Of a stretch of 64,000 nt of DNA, positions 17,080 through 35,250 are shown one piece after another. The translations under genes were made by a program, and so were the position numbers. How positions within the stretch are numbered: position 1 is the stretch's first letter; the number at the start of each line of letters is the position of its first letter. Origin of the DNA: a virus. The notes below the pieces were generated by a model. It searched no databases, was not told where the DNA came from, and worked only from the letters and a program-made list of their open reading frames with translations. Location of the stretch: IMG/VR virus record IMGVR_UViG_3300040801_004562, positions 1-64,000 of that record; one strand, 5' to 3'.

Positions 17080-18591
17080 ATGGCCTGCAAATTTTTATGT
17101 GATCCAATCTACACGCTCAAGGATACGAGACGGTGCATCGCCCATTATTCAGTTGACGAGTGCGCCCGGCATGTCTTAAACAAGTACCCGGATTCTTTCG
17201 TGTATTACATCCGACCGGCGGAGCCTGGAGACGATCATTTCATTTTCGAGGAGGATCTGGCCGCAGACTTTCCCGGACGGGTCAAGTACTGGAACGGCTT
17301 CCATATCCCCCACAACCGAGTTTTTCAGTTCATTTGGAGGCATGAGTGGTTTTCCGATCTGATTGCCGGTACAGGCTACGCATGGGACTGGGACGTTTTG
17401 CTGACCATGCGCGGGCCTGTCATGCAACACGTGAAGTGGCTGAACTGGGGAGGGACCCATCAGGCCAAGAAGATCCTGATCCAGGACCATTTCCCGATTC
17501 TTGACTTCAAGGTTGCCGCCAAGTTCTATTTCAGAGGGGACAAGATGACCCAGCTTACCACGCTTGGATCCTACGCCTGCGCGGACAAGGTTGTGGTTGG
17601 TGCGGACTACGAGGCCAAGCGCATTATGAAGACAGCCCGCCAGTATCTCTCCCCCTCAATTTGCAAACGTTTGCAAAACAAGTTGGAATCCGGTTTTGTG
17701 ATCCCACGTGGACTCGACCTGGAGTATCCGTTCAAGAAGACAGCACCGAAGAAAGGGCGTCCCATTGTCGGTATCTTTACCCAGCGGATCGGGCTGGCCG
17801 GGAGACACCCGTTTGCCGCCCTCGACGCCTTCTTCTACAGCTTCGTTCAGCGGGACTCTGAGAGGGTCAAGTTCCATATCTCCACCAACTCTATGACGTC
17901 GTTTTCTGACGATGCCCTGAACAAATACTCGTTTGTGGAGTTCTACCAGTCAGATCGGTCTCAGTTCTACGAGAAACTCCGTCAATCCGACTTCTGCATC
18001 AGCTTCAGCACGACCGAGGGAATGCCAACGTCCATCCTGGAGGCGGTCTGTTGGGGCTGCATCCCGGTGCTGGTCAGGTATGACTGGTCGGTGGATATGG
18101 TCGGAGAGGATTACCCGCTTCTTTTCCGATCGCAGACGGAGGCTGTTGCCATGGTAGGGAAGATCCTGGACAACCCGGCTGAGATGTTTGCCCGCTACCA
18201 GGAGTGGTATCGTTCTTATTTCCTCCCTTACCTTGACCGCTGTGGGAGCCTTCTGCGAGCCTGTGAGGAGATGGTGGAGCGAAACGCCGTTGAAGTTGAC
18301 GAGTTTGCTTCAAAACGCCAGGACAACCCGCTTTATGGGGAGATCCAGAAGTATGTGGAAAGAAAGAAGATCCGTCGGGTTGTCCTGTATGACCTCCTTA
18401 AAAAGCTGAAGGAGGAGGGGATTATCCGTGTTGATCCTGATATTATGGGAGTTGGGAAGCGACCGCAGCGGGCGATGGGGCGGGCGGTTCCTGCCCGGCT
18501 GCCGAACTATTATACCATCCTGCATACCCTGCTGAAGAAGACCGGGTGGCAGAGAGGACTTGAGGTTGGCGAAATTGTTACCGATCTTTAA
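17080..18591 (+). CDS. GT-B fold glycosyltransferase
   Basis: EGMPTSILEAVCWG (E-x7-E) motif; sugar-gene context. Confidence 0.75.
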   Translation: MACKFLCDPIYTLKDTRRCIAHYSVDECARHVLNKYPDSFVYYIRPAEPGDDHFIFEEDLAADFPGRVKYWNGFHIPHNRVFQFIWRHEWFSDLIAGTGYAWDWDVLLTMRGPVMQHVKWLNWGGTHQAKKILIQDHFPILDFKVAAKFYFRGDKMTQLTTLGSYACADKVVVGADYEAKRIMKTARQYLSPSICKRLQNKLESGFVIPRGLDLEYPFKKTAPKKGRPIVGIFTQRIGLAGRHPFAALDAFFYSFVQRDSERVKFHISTNSMTSFSDDALNKYSFVEFYQSDRSQFYEKLRQSDFCISFSTTEGMPTSILEAVCWGCIPVLVRYDWSVDMVGEDYPLLFRSQTEAVAMVGKILDNPAEMFARYQEWYRSYFLPYLDRCGSLLRACEEMVERNAVEVDEFASKRQDNPLYGEIQKYVERKKIRRVVLYDLLKKLKEEGIIRVDPDIMGVGKRPQRAMGRAVPARLPNYYTILHTLLKKTGWQRGLEVGEIVTDL

Positions 18592-28838: not shown

Positions 28839-29021
28839 ATGAAAAAACCCACCCAGAAAAAAACGGATCTGATCTACTCCAGCCTGAGCGGCCTTATCTG
28901 GTTCGATCGCCTCTCCCTTGATCGGCAGGGTGAAATTTGCATCGCGATTGCGGAGCGCCTGACCCTGGCAGAGTGCAATGATCGCCTTGTAGTATGGGAA
29001 GAGGCAAAATACGTTTCCTGA
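28839..29021 (+). CDS. hypothetical protein
   Basis: RBS AAAGG, directly after promoter. Confidence 0.55.
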   Translation: MKKPTQKKTDLIYSSLSGLIWFDRLSLDRQGEICIAIAERLTLAECNDRLVVWEEAKYVS

Positions 29022-29056
29022 AGACCCAAGCCTTTAATGGCAGAAAGGAGTCTGAA

Positions 29057-30544
29057 ATGTCCGAGATCAAAGGCCAAGTTTCCATCCCCCGCGAGTACTT
29101 CTTCAAAATGGCTTGTGCAGACTATGAGTCCTGGCAAGCTGCCCTGCCCCGCGAGTTCTTCCAGAATTCCATTGATGCTGGGGCCTCTAAGATAGAGGTC
29201 ACCTTTGATGACGCTGCCCGTCTGGTCACTGTCGTTGATAACGGCAGCGGGATGAGCCTGCAGACCCTGACTGAAAAACTGCTGGTCCTGGGCGGGTCCT
29301 TGAAAGACAGCGCCAGTGCGGTTGGGGCCTTTGGCAAGGCGAAAGAGCTGCTGTTCTTCTCCTGGGATCGGTATGAAATCTTGACCAAGGATCTGCGGGT
29401 TGTGGGGGTTGGTGCCGAGTACACCATCACCCATACTGCCACCCAGGTGGGAGGGACCACTTGCAAAATTTGGCTTCCGGACGGAAGTCCGCTCGATTAC
29501 CTCAAGAATTCCTTCACCACGGTGGCGGGGCGGATGCAAACTGCTGCCAAAATTTATGTGGACGGGGAGCGGTGTGACGGAACCCTTCGCCGGGGGACCC
29601 CTGTCAGAACCATTGAGAATATCGGCCAGATTTACCAGACCAAGTGCCGCCAGAATTCCTACATGGCGGTTCGGATCAACGGAATTTGGATGTTTGCCCT
29701 TTATGTTGGGGACGGCAAGGGGGAGTTGGTCCTTGAACTTGAGCGGTCCAGCCTTGAACTGCTGACCAGCAACCGGGACGGCTTCAAGTGGCCCCACGGT
29801 AGAGATATCAGCAAGGTGGTTGCTGACTTGTTGATCAATCCTGATTCGGCCCTGTCCAAAAAGAAGAACATTGTCAAGGAGCGCATCCGGGGCACCGGGA
29901 AAGTCCGGGTTGCTGCTGAGGCGGTTGATCGCGCAAGGGGTGTCATGGAGACCGGATCCATCAATGATTTCCGGGATGCTGTGAAGGCCATGCTGCTGGA
30001 CCTTGGGCAGCTCCAGGGTTTGGCGAAGGCGCGTGCCAACGACCTGAAGCAGCTCGCCAAGACGGATAACCGTGAGGCCCTGAGCCTGCTGTCCCTTGCC
30101 GGTTACCAGCCGGATTTTGTCCTGAAGTATGAGGACGGCCAGCGGAAAACGGTGGCTTCCTTCATGTCCAAGCCTCGGGCCTCTATGCTGAGCAAGATTT
30201 GGACGGAGACCATCCGGCAGGTGTTGCTGGATAACCGGATTTCCCTGGAGTTCTCTGCCGGGTTCGTCTTTGATGATGATGTGGAAGCCTGCATAGAGCG
30301 GGTTGACGGTGACGTTACCATCTACGTGAATCCCCTGAAGATCGGGAAGATCTCACCTCGGAGAATCCTGATGGGCGATTTGACCATGAAGGCGGCCCAT
30401 GAGCTTTCCCACCTGAAAGTCAGCGAGCACAATGAAGCGTTCGTGAATGAACTCCACCGGATGATGGGGGAGACCTACAAGAGCGATTACTGTTACATCA
30501 AGATCGGAAAGATCAAAGCTTCCGATGAATACCGGGGGAGGTAA
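29057..30544 (+). CDS. GHKL (Hsp90/MORC-like) ATPase fused to C-terminal HEXXH zincin-like domain
   Basis: REFFQNSIDA, DNGSGM, GAFG, GT; AAHELSH..EHNEAF. Confidence 0.8.
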   Translation: MSEIKGQVSIPREYFFKMACADYESWQAALPREFFQNSIDAGASKIEVTFDDAARLVTVVDNGSGMSLQTLTEKLLVLGGSLKDSASAVGAFGKAKELLFFSWDRYEILTKDLRVVGVGAEYTITHTATQVGGTTCKIWLPDGSPLDYLKNSFTTVAGRMQTAAKIYVDGERCDGTLRRGTPVRTIENIGQIYQTKCRQNSYMAVRINGIWMFALYVGDGKGELVLELERSSLELLTSNRDGFKWPHGRDISKVVADLLINPDSALSKKKNIVKERIRGTGKVRVAAEAVDRARGVMETGSINDFRDAVKAMLLDLGQLQGLAKARANDLKQLAKTDNREALSLLSLAGYQPDFVLKYEDGQRKTVASFMSKPRASMLSKIWTETIRQVLLDNRISLEFSAGFVFDDDVEACIERVDGDVTIYVNPLKIGKISPRRILMGDLTMKAAHELSHLKVSEHNEAFVNELHRMMGETYKSDYCYIKIGKIKASDEYRGR

Positions 30545-30895: not shown

Positions 30896-30920
30896 AGACT
30901 GCTGTTTGCAAAGAAAGGAG

Positions 30921-30980
30921 GTATAACTGTACGAAACCGTATTCTATGATACTCCACCGTATTGTATCTAACAGTGTCCA
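30921..30980 (+). repeat. 5-nt periodic array 1 (AY-NNN x10, flanked by GT-NNN)
   Basis: actgt acgaa accgt attct atgat actcc accgt attgt atcta acagt. Confidence 0.9.
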
Positions 30981-31003
30981 TTAGAGGAGGTAGAACCGTC
31001 CGA

Positions 31004-31078
31004 ACCCCACGGTACCGAATCTTATTGGATAGAACAGCACCGCATCCTATTGAATTGTATAGAACTGGACGGTATCAC
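31004..31078 (+). repeat. 5-nt periodic array 2 (AY-NNN x15)
   Basis: acccc acggt accga atctt attgg ataga acagc accgc atcct attga attgt ataga actgg acggt atcac. Confidence 0.95.
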
Positions 31079-31093
31079 CTCAGAGGAATTAAA

Positions 31094-31732
31094 ATGGAGA
31101 TCACAAAAAAAGCGCGGTTTGTAACGAAGTTTTACGGGGGGCGTCCATATTGCCAGGGAGAGGAGATCGTAGAGCAGTGGCTGGCGGATCAGACCGATAA
31201 GCTGGCTCACCCAAGATATGCGGAGTTGAACAAAGCGATCAAGAGCCCTGACAAGCTGGAGCGCATCCTGTCTGTGTTCAATGTCAATGATGATGGGCAC
31301 CCGATCATCGGAAACTGGATGCTGCTTCGCTGTTCGATCAATGCCCAGAAACTGTCGGGGACGTGGAAAAAATACAAGGTGTCGGCGGACCGGTGGAGAT
31401 CGATGGTGCAGTTCACGCCCCCGTTCTGCCCGCTGGTCAACGGATCTCGGCTTGTTCAACCTGATGGGGTGGACGTTTATACGGTGACCACCCCGAAGAA
31501 CAGCTTCTTCACTGCATACCAGCTTGTGAATTCTGGGACGAAATTCAAGTTTACGATCCACGTGCCGGACGATCTATGTGAGATCGCAGTAAAAGACGCC
31601 GATGGAAATGTCACCACTGAAGCCGATGAGGAGCAGACGTTAGCCTGCGTGACAGACATTCTGGACAAGATGCAGATTATCGGTCTCGGTGCCTTCCGTG
31701 AACGGTATGGGAAGTTCGAGTACTTTGAATAG
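31094..31732 (+). CDS. solitary Cas7/RAMP-like protein (212 aa)
   Basis: N-terminal strand ending FYGGRP, F..NDDGHPII..W.L, C-terminal Gly-rich loop IGLGAFRERYGKF; RBS AGAGGA before ATG 31094. Confidence 0.7.
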   Translation: MEITKKARFVTKFYGGRPYCQGEEIVEQWLADQTDKLAHPRYAELNKAIKSPDKLERILSVFNVNDDGHPIIGNWMLLRCSINAQKLSGTWKKYKVSADRWRSMVQFTPPFCPLVNGSRLVQPDGVDVYTVTTPKNSFFTAYQLVNSGTKFKFTIHVPDDLCEIAVKDADGNVTTEADEEQTLACVTDILDKMQIIGLGAFRERYGKFEYFE

Positions 31733-31803
31733 CATAATACCGAATAACCTCCCATCCGATGGTGTGCGATAGGATCTTATGGCATGCTATTTTATGTGAT
31801 TTG
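31729..31803 (+). repeat. 5-nt periodic array 3 (13 of 15 pentamers AY-NNN)
   Basis: atagc ataat accga ataac ctccc atccg atggt gtgcg atagg atctt atggc atgct atttt atgtg atttg. Confidence 0.9.
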
Positions 31804-31836
31804 AACAAACCCCCGAGGGGGTATCTGAGACCGCCC

Positions 31837-31901
31837 ATCCTACTCAATGTGATGCTATTTTATGGGATTCAATCAAATAGTAACTGATGGCATGTTATTA
31901 A
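31837..31901 (+). repeat. 5-nt periodic array 4 (12 of 13 pentamers AY-NNN)
   Basis: atcct actca atgtg atgct atttt atggg attca atcaa atagt aactg atggc atgtt attaa. Confidence 0.9.
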
Positions 31902-31967
31902 CCGACCGGATCGGCCGAATCGAATTGATCGACCGGCTGACTGGTCAACCAAGAAAGGAGACAGAAA

Positions 31968-32270
31968 ATGGGAGAGAACTTGAAGCCGTTGGTAGATGAG
32001 AAAATCGTTGGTAAGTTCATCGACAAGGCCCTGACGCTTGGGGCCGGACTACTGGAAAAGGCGGAGACTGACAATGCTGCCCACATTCTGAGGATCCTGA
32101 AGGACCTTAGTCCGTATGTGGGAAATGGGGTCGGGATGGTCTCCCAGGCCACGGCACGGGAGCGGAACACGATTGTCGAAAAGAAGATGGCACAGTTGGG
32201 GTATAAGAAACGGGAAGAGGAAGATAAAAGAACAGGCCAAGTTGATCAGAAAGGAGACCCGGCACAATGA
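31968..32270 (+). CDS. hypothetical protein
   Basis: RBS AAGGAG. Confidence 0.65.
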   Translation: MGENLKPLVDEKIVGKFIDKALTLGAGLLEKAETDNAAHILRILKDLSPYVGNGVGMVSQATARERNTIVEKKMAQLGYKKREEEDKRTGQVDQKGDPAQ

Positions 32271-33430
32271 ACTTTGCCAACCTGGATCGTCAGGCTGCGA
32301 TGTACTTCCGCGAGCTGAACGCTGCTGTGGCGGACGTCTGCAGCCACGCCAAGTTTATCCTGGGACCGGAGGTAGAGCACTTCGAGTCCCTCATGGCCGA
32401 GCGCTGCAAGAGGAAGCACGCCATCGGCTGCGCCTCCGGGACTGATGCACTGACCATGGCCCTGATGGTTGCCCGTTCCTGGAAGAAGACCGGGGGAACT
32501 GTCCTGACTTCTCCCTTCTGCTTCGTTGCGACGGCGGAGGCTGCTGCCCTTCTCGGGATGGAGGTCCTCTTTTCGGACATCGAAGTCGAGACCTTCTCCC
32601 TTGACCCGGAATATGTCTGGGCGGAGGTGAACCGGCAGGCCCCCTGGTGGCGTCCTACCGACGGTCGACTCCGGACCCTGGATGCGGTTGTGATCCCCAA
32701 TATGTTTGGGAGGATGGCCCAGTGGGAGCGGTTCGAGAAACTCCAAGCGCGGGGGATCATCCTTATTGAGGACGCTGCCCAGTCCTTCGGTGCCTCACGG
32801 GGTGGTAGGCCCTCCGGGTGCTTCGGTGATATGTCTATTCTCTCGTTTTTCCCCACCAAGCCTCTGGGATGTTATGGGGACGGTGGGATGGTCCTGACCG
32901 ACTCTGATGAATACGCCGACATGTTGCGATCGATCCGGTCCCACGGCTGCGGGAATTCCAAGTATGATCACCGGATGGTCGGGATGAATTCCAGGCTGGA
33001 CACGATCCAGGCTGCTGTCCTGCTGACCAAGATTGAATGGGTAGAGAAGGAGCGGTCCCGGCGGATAATGACCGCCCAGCACTACTGTTCCGAGTTTGAC
33101 GGGCTCGACTGGCTGTACGTCCCTGAACATGGGGAGGACTCAGCCGTTGCCCAGTTCTCCCTTCTCCTTCCGAACAAGCGGATTCGGTACGCGTTCCAGG
33201 AATACATGAAATCCCAGGGAATCCCGACCATGGTGCACTACCCGAAACCGTTGAATTTACAGGTCCCCTACCTCGACGGGAAGGTTTACGAGCAGGCCCA
33301 GGAAACGTGTGGGAGAATAGTCCAGATCCCCTGCGATGCTTACATGACAGATGAGGAAGTTCTTCAAGTGGTGACGGCGGTGAAGATGTTCGATTCCGCC
33401 CCAATGTTCGGATTGACAAGCGAAGGATAG
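32267..33430 (+). CDS. DegT/DnrJ/EryC1/StrS PLP-dependent sugar aminotransferase
   Basis: SGTDAL, IEDAAQS, SFFPTKPLGCYGDGG, NSRLDTIQAA. Confidence 0.95.
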   Translation: MNFANLDRQAAMYFRELNAAVADVCSHAKFILGPEVEHFESLMAERCKRKHAIGCASGTDALTMALMVARSWKKTGGTVLTSPFCFVATAEAAALLGMEVLFSDIEVETFSLDPEYVWAEVNRQAPWWRPTDGRLRTLDAVVIPNMFGRMAQWERFEKLQARGIILIEDAAQSFGASRGGRPSGCFGDMSILSFFPTKPLGCYGDGGMVLTDSDEYADMLRSIRSHGCGNSKYDHRMVGMNSRLDTIQAAVLLTKIEWVEKERSRRIMTAQHYCSEFDGLDWLYVPEHGEDSAVAQFSLLLPNKRIRYAFQEYMKSQGIPTMVHYPKPLNLQVPYLDGKVYEQAQETCGRIVQIPCDAYMTDEEVLQVVTAVKMFDSAPMFGLTSEG

Positions 33431-34965: not shown

Positions 34966-35159
34966 CCGCTGCCTGGACCTTGGAGGTTTGCATCCACGGG
35001 GTGCGAGAGGAGCCGGACGGCCACCCTTGCCCAGAATGCCAGAAAATTGCAGCGTCGCTGGGATGGGAGGTGGTGCCCGGAATTGCCACCTATATTTTCA
35101 CGGAGGATTGGGTACGGAGGAACAAGAAAAAATTTCCAGAATTACTACCGAATGAGTAA
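34962..35159 (+). CDS. small Zn-finger hypothetical protein
   Basis: ATGA overlap; CIH...CPEC. Confidence 0.5.
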   Translation: MTAAWTLEVCIHGVREEPDGHPCPECQKIAASLGWEVVPGIATYIFTEDWVRRNKKKFPELLPNE

Positions 35160-35250
35160 TCTTACGGGAGAGCACAGCCTGAATGTCTACCGCTGAGCAA
35201 TTCTACGGGAGAGCACAGCCGGTATTACTACCGAGTGAGTAATACCGGCT
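35141..35250 (+). repeat. ~41-bp tandem repeat (2.5 units) ending in a 13-bp perfect hairpin
   Basis: TACGGGAGAGCACAGCC at 35163 and 35204; CTACCG..TGAGYAAT x3; AGCCGGTATTACT/AGTAATACCGGCT. Confidence 0.8.

What the first reader, a model, noticed from the sequence alone, without database searches (positions are those of the whole stretch)
30911..31950. Solitary Cas7/RAMP-like gene flanked by four 5-nt-periodic AY-NNN arrays: candidate non-CRISPR RNA-guided system
Seen: the non-coding DNA on both sides of 31094-31732 consists of pentamers with a fixed A-(C/T) and three variable bases. There are 10 in a row at 30926-30975, 15 in a row at 31004-31078, 13/15 at 31729-31803 and 12/13 at 31837-31901. 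Fifteen consecutive AY at period 5 has odds of about (1/8)^15 under uniform composition. The triplets nearly all differ, so this is not a microsatellite, and I saw the pattern nowhere else in the window. The protein has RAMP/Cas7 hallmarks (first strand ending in GG-x-P, DG-x-P-hydrophobic motif, C-terminal G-loop GLGAFRERYGKF). No cas1/2/5/6 or repeat-spacer array is present. Known: Cas7 proteins polymerise along RNA with a fixed nucleotide step per subunit. Inference: each array is a 50-75-nt guide RNA; one subunit grips each AY and the NNN triplets together spell a discontinuous target, for example in a competing phage or a host promoter. From memory and unverified, phage RAMP systems with GGY-NN pentamer guides have been reported (VIPR); a 2-fixed/3-variable AY-NNN code would be a different variant.
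Basis: partly seen in the sequence, partly recalled or inferred. Interest (0 to 1): 0.96.

Follow-up and report, generated by a model that had tools for sequence, protein, structure and literature searches.

The report
Phage VIPR system with A-Y guides
An uncultured 98-kb phage carries a VIPR system, a CRISPR-related RNA-guided DNA silencer first described in 2026. Its guide arrays are written in five-base units with a fixed A-pyrimidine and three free letters instead of the published GGY-NN, so it is a variant of a known kind and not a new kind of system.

Summary
Period-5 A-Y runs of 10, 15, 13/15 and 12/13 units flank ORF 31094-31732 and occur nowhere else in the 98-kb phage genome.

All 33 homologous loci I could fetch carry the same A-Y-N-N-N arrays on the gene strand. 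About 1,970 units were pooled: A 96%, T/C 99%, and the other three letters free. Most loci also carry a conserved ~88-aa helical accessory gene and a covarying hairpin.

This is therefore a VIPR system (bioRxiv 2026.04.26.720920, .720927). The A-Y core is not among the consensus forms named in that paper. A later preprint lists non-canonical cores such as GAC/NN and CAC/NN.

Residues that contact G1 and G2 in SUSP1 Vipr are replaced here (D177 to Ala, R138 to Gln, W178 to Phe/Tyr).

Codon statistics on 121 arrays suggest that the letters on either side of A-Y are neighbours in the target and that the middle N faces the codon's third base. That differs from the published register.

No natural target was found, so the reading rule stays an inference.

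This scan has reported many VIPR loci on other DNA. A word search found none with an A-Y core.

The parts
30917..30921 (+). GGAGG-like leader 4 nt before array 1
   Evidence: Read. A GGRGG-like motif lies within 20 nt before 23 of 39 upstream arrays in the family. The figures are 5 of 99 for downstream arrays and 11.5% for random windows.
30926..30975 (+). Candidate vrRNA array 1: 10 A-Y-N-N-N units
30986..30990 (+). Second GGAGG-like leader, before array 2. One stray ACCGT unit at 30995-30999 and a 4-nt phase slip follow it.
31004..31078 (+). Candidate vrRNA array 2: 15 perfect units. The middle N is 87% G+C.
   Evidence: Read as a reverse complement across the A-Y, it gives the open frame DPIYIKGGFSKVDR.
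31094..31732 (+). vipr gene: a 212-aa RAMP (Cas7-like) protein, P0001
31729..31803 (+). Candidate vrRNA array 3: 13 of 15 units. It starts inside the stop codon of vipr.
31809..31822 (+). Short GC hairpin (stem of 5 pairs, CCCCC/GGGGG) between arrays 3 and 4
   Evidence: -9.1 kcal/mol, no better than shuffles. The scan does not call it a terminator.
31837..31901 (+). Candidate vrRNA array 4: 12 of 13 units. It shares a 5-unit block with array 3.
31904..31946 (+). Strong stem-loop after the last array and before the accessory gene's ribosome site
   Evidence: -25.6 kcal/mol, z -4.8, 0 of 200 shuffles as good, and weaker on the minus strand. At the same place, 17 relatives have a conserved hairpin with compensatory changes: 11 pairs, 80% paired, 21 double changes against 8.3 in shuffles, 0/500.
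31968..32270 (+). Conserved accessory gene (100 aa here, about 88 aa in relatives), predicted helical hairpin
   Evidence: Found downstream of vipr in nearly all loci long enough to show it (alignment A3). Model pLDDT 73.8, two long helices. No family or fold match. No similarity to SUSP1 vap1.

Best explanation
This is a VIPR (Viral Interference Programmable Repeat) locus of a tailed phage. Its order is two guide arrays, the vipr gene (a minimal Cas7-like RAMP), two more guide arrays, a hairpin, and a small helical accessory gene.

Inferred by homology with the SUSP1 system: the arrays are transcribed on the gene strand into guides of about 50-75 nt. Vipr subunits polymerise along each RNA, one per five-base unit, holding the fixed A-pyrimidine pair. 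The exposed variable letters pair with double-stranded DNA at three target bases per unit. The bound filament blocks transcription of a rival mobile element or host gene.

Specific to this clade: the fixed part is A-Y, not GGY, and three letters per unit are free.

Statistics on the family's guides indicate that the last free letter of one unit and the first of the next are neighbours in the target, although A-Y separates them. They also indicate that the middle free letter faces the third base of target codons.

Shown here: the fold, the homology to Vipr, the family-wide arrays, the accessory gene and the hairpin. Inferred: transcription, filament formation, DNA binding, silencing and the reading rule. 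The confidence given is for 'a VIPR-type system with an A-Y repeat core'; for the particular reading rule I would give about 0.4.
For: The arrays are real and unique to the locus.

Profile comparison with SUSP1 Vipr gives 93.9%, E 1.6e-7. The G-loop aligns as G-x-G-[D/A]-[W/F/Y]-R-x-R-[F/Y]-G-[K/R]-F.

All 33 fetched loci of the family have A-Y arrays next to the gene. In C-rich loci (L004, L006) the arrays appear only on the gene strand. About 1,970 pooled units give A 96% and Y 99%, with the other three positions near background.

The phage context is clear: the record is an IMG/VR virus record with a tape-measure gene.

The layout matches published VIPR loci, which have arrays upstream and downstream of a two-gene operon.

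G-U pairs in the conserved hairpin lie on the + strand.

Residues that contact G1 and G2 in SUSP1 are changed throughout the family: D177 to A200, R138 to Q143 (Q/E), W178 to F/Y. R179 and M72 are kept.

Reading rule: the frame reading codon = c(N3 next) c(N5) c(N4) is codon-like at z 4.4 against unit-order shuffles. Arrays free of stops in that frame number 83 of 121 against 64 expected (z 4.1). G+C of N4 is over-dispersed (chi2 185 on 120 df, against 113 and 135 for N3 and N5). The signal replicates in halves of the data. Simulated rival rules do not reproduce it.
Against: There is no RNA or binding data.

No natural target was found for any guide, in 8 IMG/VR scans, 2 scans of 185,579 species genomes and a local all-against-all search. 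The reading rule therefore rests on statistics alone.

The inferred register (read, wobble-facing, read after the fixed pair) differs from the published geometry, in which the skipped base lies opposite Y3. It is also not the register that the simplest residue mapping predicts (A = G2, Y = Y3).

No promoter or terminator is predicted.

There is no conserved tail after each individual array, unlike SUSP1.

The accessory protein resembles no described vap.
Confidence: 0.85

Rival explanations
1. It is the same VIPR machinery with the published code unchanged. Only two adjacent free letters per unit are read (N3N4 after Y, or N4N5 before A) and one target base is skipped. The third free letter is a spacer that carries no information.
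For: This is the simplest transfer from SUSP1. YNNNG repeats, which also have three N, are already placed in VIPR without a new rule. Frames +2 and -1, predicted if N4N5 are read, show some signal against within-column shuffles (z 3.2 and 2.6). In the window's own arrays frame +2 is open in 3 of 4.
Against: A simulated rule with only an intra-unit dinucleotide derived from the target gives z about 0 against unit-order shuffles in every frame. The real arrays give 4.4 in frame -3. N5 and the next N3 are as strongly correlated (X2 36) as adjacent letters (34 and 69), and all exceed 300 of 300 shuffles. N3 shows no G+C over-dispersion, and frames +1 and -2 show no signal. Scans with both two-letter rules for array 2 gave nothing beyond chance.
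Confidence: 0.3
2. The complex targets RNA (messenger RNA) rather than DNA, like type III and type VII Cas7 filaments.
For: The nearest solved folds are RNA-targeting Csm3 and type VII Cas7. The codon signal is mainly in the antisense frame. Its ranking (-3 far above +3, then +2) matches a simulation in which all coding-directed guides are antisense.
Against: Sequence homology is to Vipr, which binds double-stranded DNA. The strand bias is modest in best-frame counts (36 against 26). It could equally reflect a polarity of transcription blocking. No nuclease partner is present.
Confidence: 0.1
3. The periodic tracts act as DNA, for example as phased protein-binding or bending sites that regulate the operon, and are not guide RNAs.
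For: A period of 5 is half a helical turn. AT steps are flexible. No transcript evidence exists here. No promoter is predicted.
Against: The free letters are hypervariable between close relatives while A-Y is fixed. The arrays follow the gene strand where C makes strand visible. They always accompany an RNA-binding RAMP homologous to Vipr, whose arrays are proven RNAs that co-purify with it. The free letters carry a codon-like signal that a bending site would not have.
Confidence: 0.04

Closest known systems
Type II VIPR of Escherichia phage SUSP1 (Vipr ALH47069.1, vap1, four vrRNAs; bioRxiv 10.64898/2026.04.26.720920 and .720927)
   Same: A solitary minimal RAMP with the same G-loop motif. 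Period-5 guide arrays lie on the gene strand both upstream and downstream. It is a two-gene operon, phage-borne, with 9-16 units per guide as against 10-15 here.
   Different: The fixed part is A-Y instead of G-G-Y, and three letters are free instead of two. The G1 and G2 contact residues are replaced. The accessory gene is unrelated to vap1. No conserved pseudoknot tail follows each guide. The inferred reading register differs.
Non-canonical VIPR arrays: YNNNG, NNNGG and NNNNG; GAC/NN, CAC/NN, WGT/NN and TGH/NN clusters (bioRxiv 10.64898/2026.10.21.760802)
   Same: Five-base units beside a Vipr-like fold, with a core other than GGY. The GAC and CAC cores contain A-C, as do 19% of units here. 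YNNNG has the same 2-fixed/3-free shape.
   Different: Those are described with G, or as a fixed trinucleotide plus NN. Here the base before A is free (A26 C15 G26 T33) and T is the usual pyrimidine (80%). I could not see the figures of either paper, so I cannot say whether this clade is among the 21 clusters.
Cas7 backbone subunits of class 1 CRISPR effectors (Csm3, type III-A; type VII Cas7)
   Different: About 10-16% identity. No cas neighbours and no CRISPR array. The expected guide step is 5 nt rather than 6. No second RRM.

Membership tests
VIPR system | Sequence homology to known Vipr proteins | tested here: met
   hhalign of the 28-sequence family profile against SUSP1 Vipr: probability 93.9%, E 1.6e-7, 124 columns. 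With the 15-sequence profile the probability is 70%. Only one known Vipr was available for comparison.
VIPR system | Non-CRISPR context: no CRISPR array and no other cas genes | tested here: met
   No repeat-spacer array in the 64-kb window. The neighbours are a GHKL ATPase, a DegT aminotransferase and an AAA ATPase. Not every ORF of the window was scanned for cas families.
VIPR system | Flanking tandem five-base repeats with fixed and hypervariable positions | tested here: met
   Four arrays here. The same is seen in all 33 family loci.
VIPR system | Repeat consensus GGY/NN, or a named related form (NNNGG, YNNNG, NNNNG) | tested here: not met
   The consensus is A(96%)-Y(99%)-N-N-N, with G at 2% or less at both fixed positions. 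The paper allows 'a related consensus', so this argues for a variant rather than for exclusion.
VIPR system | Accessory vap gene in an operon with vipr | tested here: inconclusive
   A conserved accessory gene is present (A3). It has no similarity to SUSP1 vap1 and no recognisable DNA-binding fold. Sequences of vap2-6 were not available.
VIPR system | Viral or proviral host element | tested here: met
   The record is an IMG/VR virus record of 98 kb, about 80% complete, with a tape-measure gene. The relatives L001-L004 are viral contigs, and one is complete with terminal repeats.
VIPR system | Arrays are expressed as about 100-nt RNAs that co-purify with Vipr | not testable with these tools
   Needs RNA sequencing and pull-down.
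VIPR system | Gapped recognition of double-stranded DNA, at three target bases per five guide bases | tested here: inconclusive
   A codon-like signal with one codon per unit supports the 5:3 step. No target was found and the register differs from the published one.
VIPR system | Structured invariable 3' tail after the repeat tract | tested here: inconclusive
   One covarying hairpin follows the downstream array cluster in 17 relatives, and a strong hairpin sits at 31904-31946 here. No shared tail follows each array. There is no Rfam match, so no hammerhead.
Class 1 CRISPR-Cas effector (Cas7 subunit) | Encoded with other cas genes and a CRISPR array | tested here: not met
   No PADLOC or NCBIfam Cas model hit for the protein.

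The most novel reading that the evidence does not exclude
This Vipr clade uses a different written code from the published VIPR systems. The fixed A-Y pair is a two-base bulge placed inside the informative dinucleotide. All three free letters follow a contiguous stretch of the target, so no target base goes unmatched. The middle letter faces codon third positions. Guides are preferentially antisense to coding strands. It would be a natural 3-of-5 code with higher information per subunit than GGY/NN, with matching changes in the base-holding residues (Asp to Ala, Arg to Gln, Trp to Phe/Tyr).
Probability: 0.35. Interest if true: 0.75.

Novelty: new variant of a known kind. Interest (0 to 1): 0.5.

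Why it matters
VIPR was published only in 2026 and its rule (GGY held, NN read, one target base skipped) rests on one clade. A clade that holds A-Y instead of GGY, and leaves three letters free, is a natural experiment on two questions: how the protein chooses its fixed bases, and how many letters per subunit can be read.

The replaced contact residues give testable predictions for re-engineering repeat specificity.

If the three-letter contiguous reading holds, guides of the same length would carry 50% more information. The published geometry would then be one of several.

If the published rule holds instead, this is simply a further member with a relaxed consensus.

Tried and rejected
Flanks of homologues came from the search for related loci instead.
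2. The wide alignment A2 was too diverse for the search for related loci. A1 was used. The genome collection gave no relative, and the phage collection gave none by tblastn.
3. P0029 (945 aa) and P0034 (656 aa) from the representative search looked like fused multi-Vipr proteins. They are unrelated low-complexity repeat proteins.
4. Rfam search of the locus found nothing.
5. Target searches:
   - A local all-against-all of about 140 guides under 13 rules against 318 kb of the five phage genomes and loci gave only trivial self hits.
   - IMG/VR exact-seed scans of array 2 under both two-letter rules gave one independent hit, in a glucosaminidase gene. It matched 24/30, its extension was at chance (4/10), and the skipped base fell at codon position 2, so I rejected it as chance.
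   - Contiguous 20-mers of arrays 1 and 2 gave none.
   - The split-pair rule for array 2 in IMG/VR and GTDB gave one Scytonema hit whose extension fails.
   - A 32-unit guide of relative L026 gave none.
   - Array 4 gave two hits with extension at chance.
6. A peptide-level search for the phage's own diverged copy of a target found nothing above shuffles.
8. A fold search of the accessory protein gave only generic helical hairpins.
9. I first mapped A to G2 and Y to Y3. I dropped this as a claim because the codon statistics do not support reading the two letters after Y.

Full report
**1. Observation**

On the + strand, pentamers beginning A-(C/T) run as follows:
- 30926-30975: 10 of 10.
- 31004-31078: 15 of 15.
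- 31729-31803: 13 of 15.
- 31837-31901: 12 of 13.

The three following letters differ from unit to unit. The window is the first 64 kb of a 98,252-base IMG/VR virus record. In the whole record, runs of five or more such units occur only here, on either strand. In 200 shuffles of the genome the longest run was 4-6 in 195, 7 in four and 8 in one.

**2. The protein**

ORF 31094-31732 (212 aa, P0001) has no hit in Pfam, PHROGs, NCBIfam, PADLOC or PDB sequences.

It belongs to a small family:
- 15 proteins turned up in the 5.8-billion-protein index.
- 21 representatives turned up in an exhaustive HMMER pass.
- Two long 'hits' among those are unrelated repeat proteins.

An AlphaFold2 model built on the family alignment has pLDDT 81.8. 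Its best matches are:
- Foldseek: Csm3 (the Cas7 of type III-A) and type VII Cas7, probability 1.0.
- The viral structure library: phage RAMP proteins.

**3. The known system**

VIPR systems were described in 2026 (bioRxiv 10.64898/2026.04.26.720920; structures in 10.64898/2026.04.26.720927). Their features are:
- A solitary RAMP, Vipr, usually with one accessory gene (vap).
- Flanking RNAs made of GGY/NN pentamers.
- One protomer per repeat.
- The NN letters pair with double-stranded DNA while every third target base is skipped, and binding represses transcription.
- Targets are rival phages, satellites and prophages.

I located the reference locus in Escherichia phage SUSP1 (KT454805). The arrays lie at 27.6-28.0 and 29.17-29.23 kb on the gene strand. 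Vipr is ALH47069.1 and vap1 is ALH47068.1.

A profile of the present family aligns with SUSP1 Vipr at 93.9% probability, E 1.6e-7. The G-loop motif G-x-G-x-x-R-x-R-[FY]-G-[KR]-F lies in register.

**4. The arrays belong to the family**

I fetched 4 viral and 29 metagenomic loci that encode relatives with 28-57% identity. Every one has A-Y period-5 arrays directly beside the gene.
- Loci rich in A-C units (L004, L006) show arrays only on the gene strand. L009, also rich in A-C units, shows nine on the gene strand and one on the other.
- Pooled over about 1,970 units: position 1 is A in 96%, and position 2 is T in 80% and C in 19%. Positions 3-5 are close to background, with only C at position 5 somewhat low at 15%.
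- Guides are not shared except between near-identical loci.
- A typical locus has arrays, then vipr, then arrays, then a small gene, then more arrays. The window lacks the last cluster.

**5. Other conserved parts**

- *Accessory gene.* A gene of about 88 aa follows in nearly all loci long enough to show it. Here it is 31968-32270. It is predicted as a helical hairpin. It has no family or fold match and no similarity to vap1.
- *Hairpin.* Between the downstream arrays and this gene, 17 relatives share a hairpin with compensatory changes. It has 11 pairs and 80% of cells paired, with 21 double changes against 8.3 +/- 2.2 in shuffles (0/500), and it beats every slid control. Its G-U pairs lie on the + strand. 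The window has a different but very stable stem-loop at the same place: 31904-31946, -25.6 kcal/mol, z -4.8.
- *Leader motif.* Upstream arrays are preceded by a GGRGG-like motif in 23 of 39 cases, against 5 of 99 for downstream arrays and 11.5% of random windows. Its role is unknown.
- *Transcription signals.* No promoter or terminator is predicted.

**6. What differs from published VIPR**

The paper names GGY/NN plus NNNGG, YNNNG and NNNNG. None of these has A.

A later preprint (10.64898/2026.10.21.760802) reports 21 clusters with non-canonical cores such as GAC/NN and CAC/NN beside Vipr-like folds. A-containing cores are therefore not unheard of. I could not see its figures to tell whether this clade is included.

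The only NCBI members of the family lie on contigs of 1.8-4.2 kb. The VIPR paper discarded contigs under 20 kb, so the clade was probably outside its classification.

The SUSP1 contact residues compare as follows:
- Asp177, which bonds G1, aligns with an invariant Ala200.
- Arg138, which bonds G2, aligns with Gln143 (Gln or Glu in the family).
- Trp178, which stacks on G2, aligns with Phe or Tyr.
- Arg179 and Met72 of the pyrimidine pocket are kept.

This fits a changed fixed dinucleotide. Which pocket holds A and which holds Y cannot be told from sequence.

**7. Reading rule (inference)**

*Pair correlations.* Shuffling within columns of each array served as the null.
- N3-N4 gives X2 34, N4-N5 gives 69, and N5 with the next unit's N3 gives 36, although A-Y lies between that last pair. 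In each case 0 of 300 shuffles reach the observed value.
- Pairs two or more steps apart are weaker.

*Codon-like signal.* This was tested on 121 non-redundant arrays from 30 loci.
- The reverse complement of the joined N letters is codon-like only in the register codon = c(N3 next) c(N5) c(N4).
- That frame gives z 4.4 against unit-order shuffles.
- 83 arrays are stop-free against 64 expected (z 4.1).
- 62 of 121 arrays have their best frame in the two frames that put N4 at the third codon base.
- G+C of N4 is over-dispersed between arrays (chi2 185 on 120 df), as codon third positions are. N3 (113) and N5 (135) are not.
- The signal replicates in halves of the data.

*Simulations*.
- Guides in which only an intra-unit dinucleotide derives from the target give no signal.
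- Contiguous copies in any phase give flat best-frame counts.
- Contiguous antisense copies with N4 at the third base give the observed ranking.

*The window's own arrays.* In array 2, N4 is 87% G+C. The decoded frame reads DPIYIKGGFSKVDR.

*What this suggests.* A 5:3 step as in VIPR, with the A-Y bulge splitting the two informative letters, and mostly antisense guides. It is not confirmed. All eight IMG/VR scans, both genome scans and the local searches found no target better than chance.

**8. Verdict**

This is a genuine VIPR system in a phage, of a clade whose guide alphabet (A-Y plus three free letters) is not described in the text of the papers I could read. Matching changes occur in the base-holding residues, the accessory gene is unassigned, and statistics hint at a different register. 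It is a new variant of a known kind.

Earlier notes of this scan report many VIPR loci elsewhere. A word search found none with an A-Y core. One note on this same stretch mentions the leader and hairpin.

Noticed in passing
window 28994-30544: A 516-aa ORF just upstream has an N-terminal GHKL (HATPase_c_3) ATPase domain (E 1e-7). It also has a weak C-terminal zinc-metallopeptidase-like motif (YgjP/WLM, below cut-off). Whether it belongs with the VIPR locus is unknown. It is not seen next to vipr in the relatives I looked at.
   Followed up: no
window 32267-33430 and 17080-18591: The phage encodes a DegT/DnrJ/EryC1 sugar aminotransferase (E 1e-82) directly after the accessory gene. Further upstream there is a glycosyltransferase-like protein. 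These may serve sugar modification of DNA or of the host surface.
   Followed up: no
L002-L030, between the downstream arrays and the accessory gene (alignment A4): A conserved hairpin, TTTCTGT-stem-TGTCTTTC-loop-GAAAGA-CA-stem-(G)TAATTTCC, has compensatory changes in its outer stem. It has no Rfam family. The window has a stem-loop of unrelated sequence at the same place.
   Followed up: partly
L030:512-671 and L029:3270-3369: Some guides of relatives contain internal repeats of three units, for example ATCCG ATTAC ATCTT three times. These would spell a 9-base tandem repeat in the target, perhaps iterons or operator repeats rather than coding DNA.
   Followed up: no
window 35139-35243: A 41-base tandem repeat, 2.5 copies, 78% matches, found by Tandem Repeats Finder. 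It is unrelated to the finding.
   Followed up: no
L014:671-988 (minus strand): A relative's locus has a long run of short minus-strand A-Y blocks of 6-7 units each, spaced about 36 nt apart, upstream of its vipr gene. This is a more regular, punctuated array architecture than elsewhere in the family.
   Followed up: no
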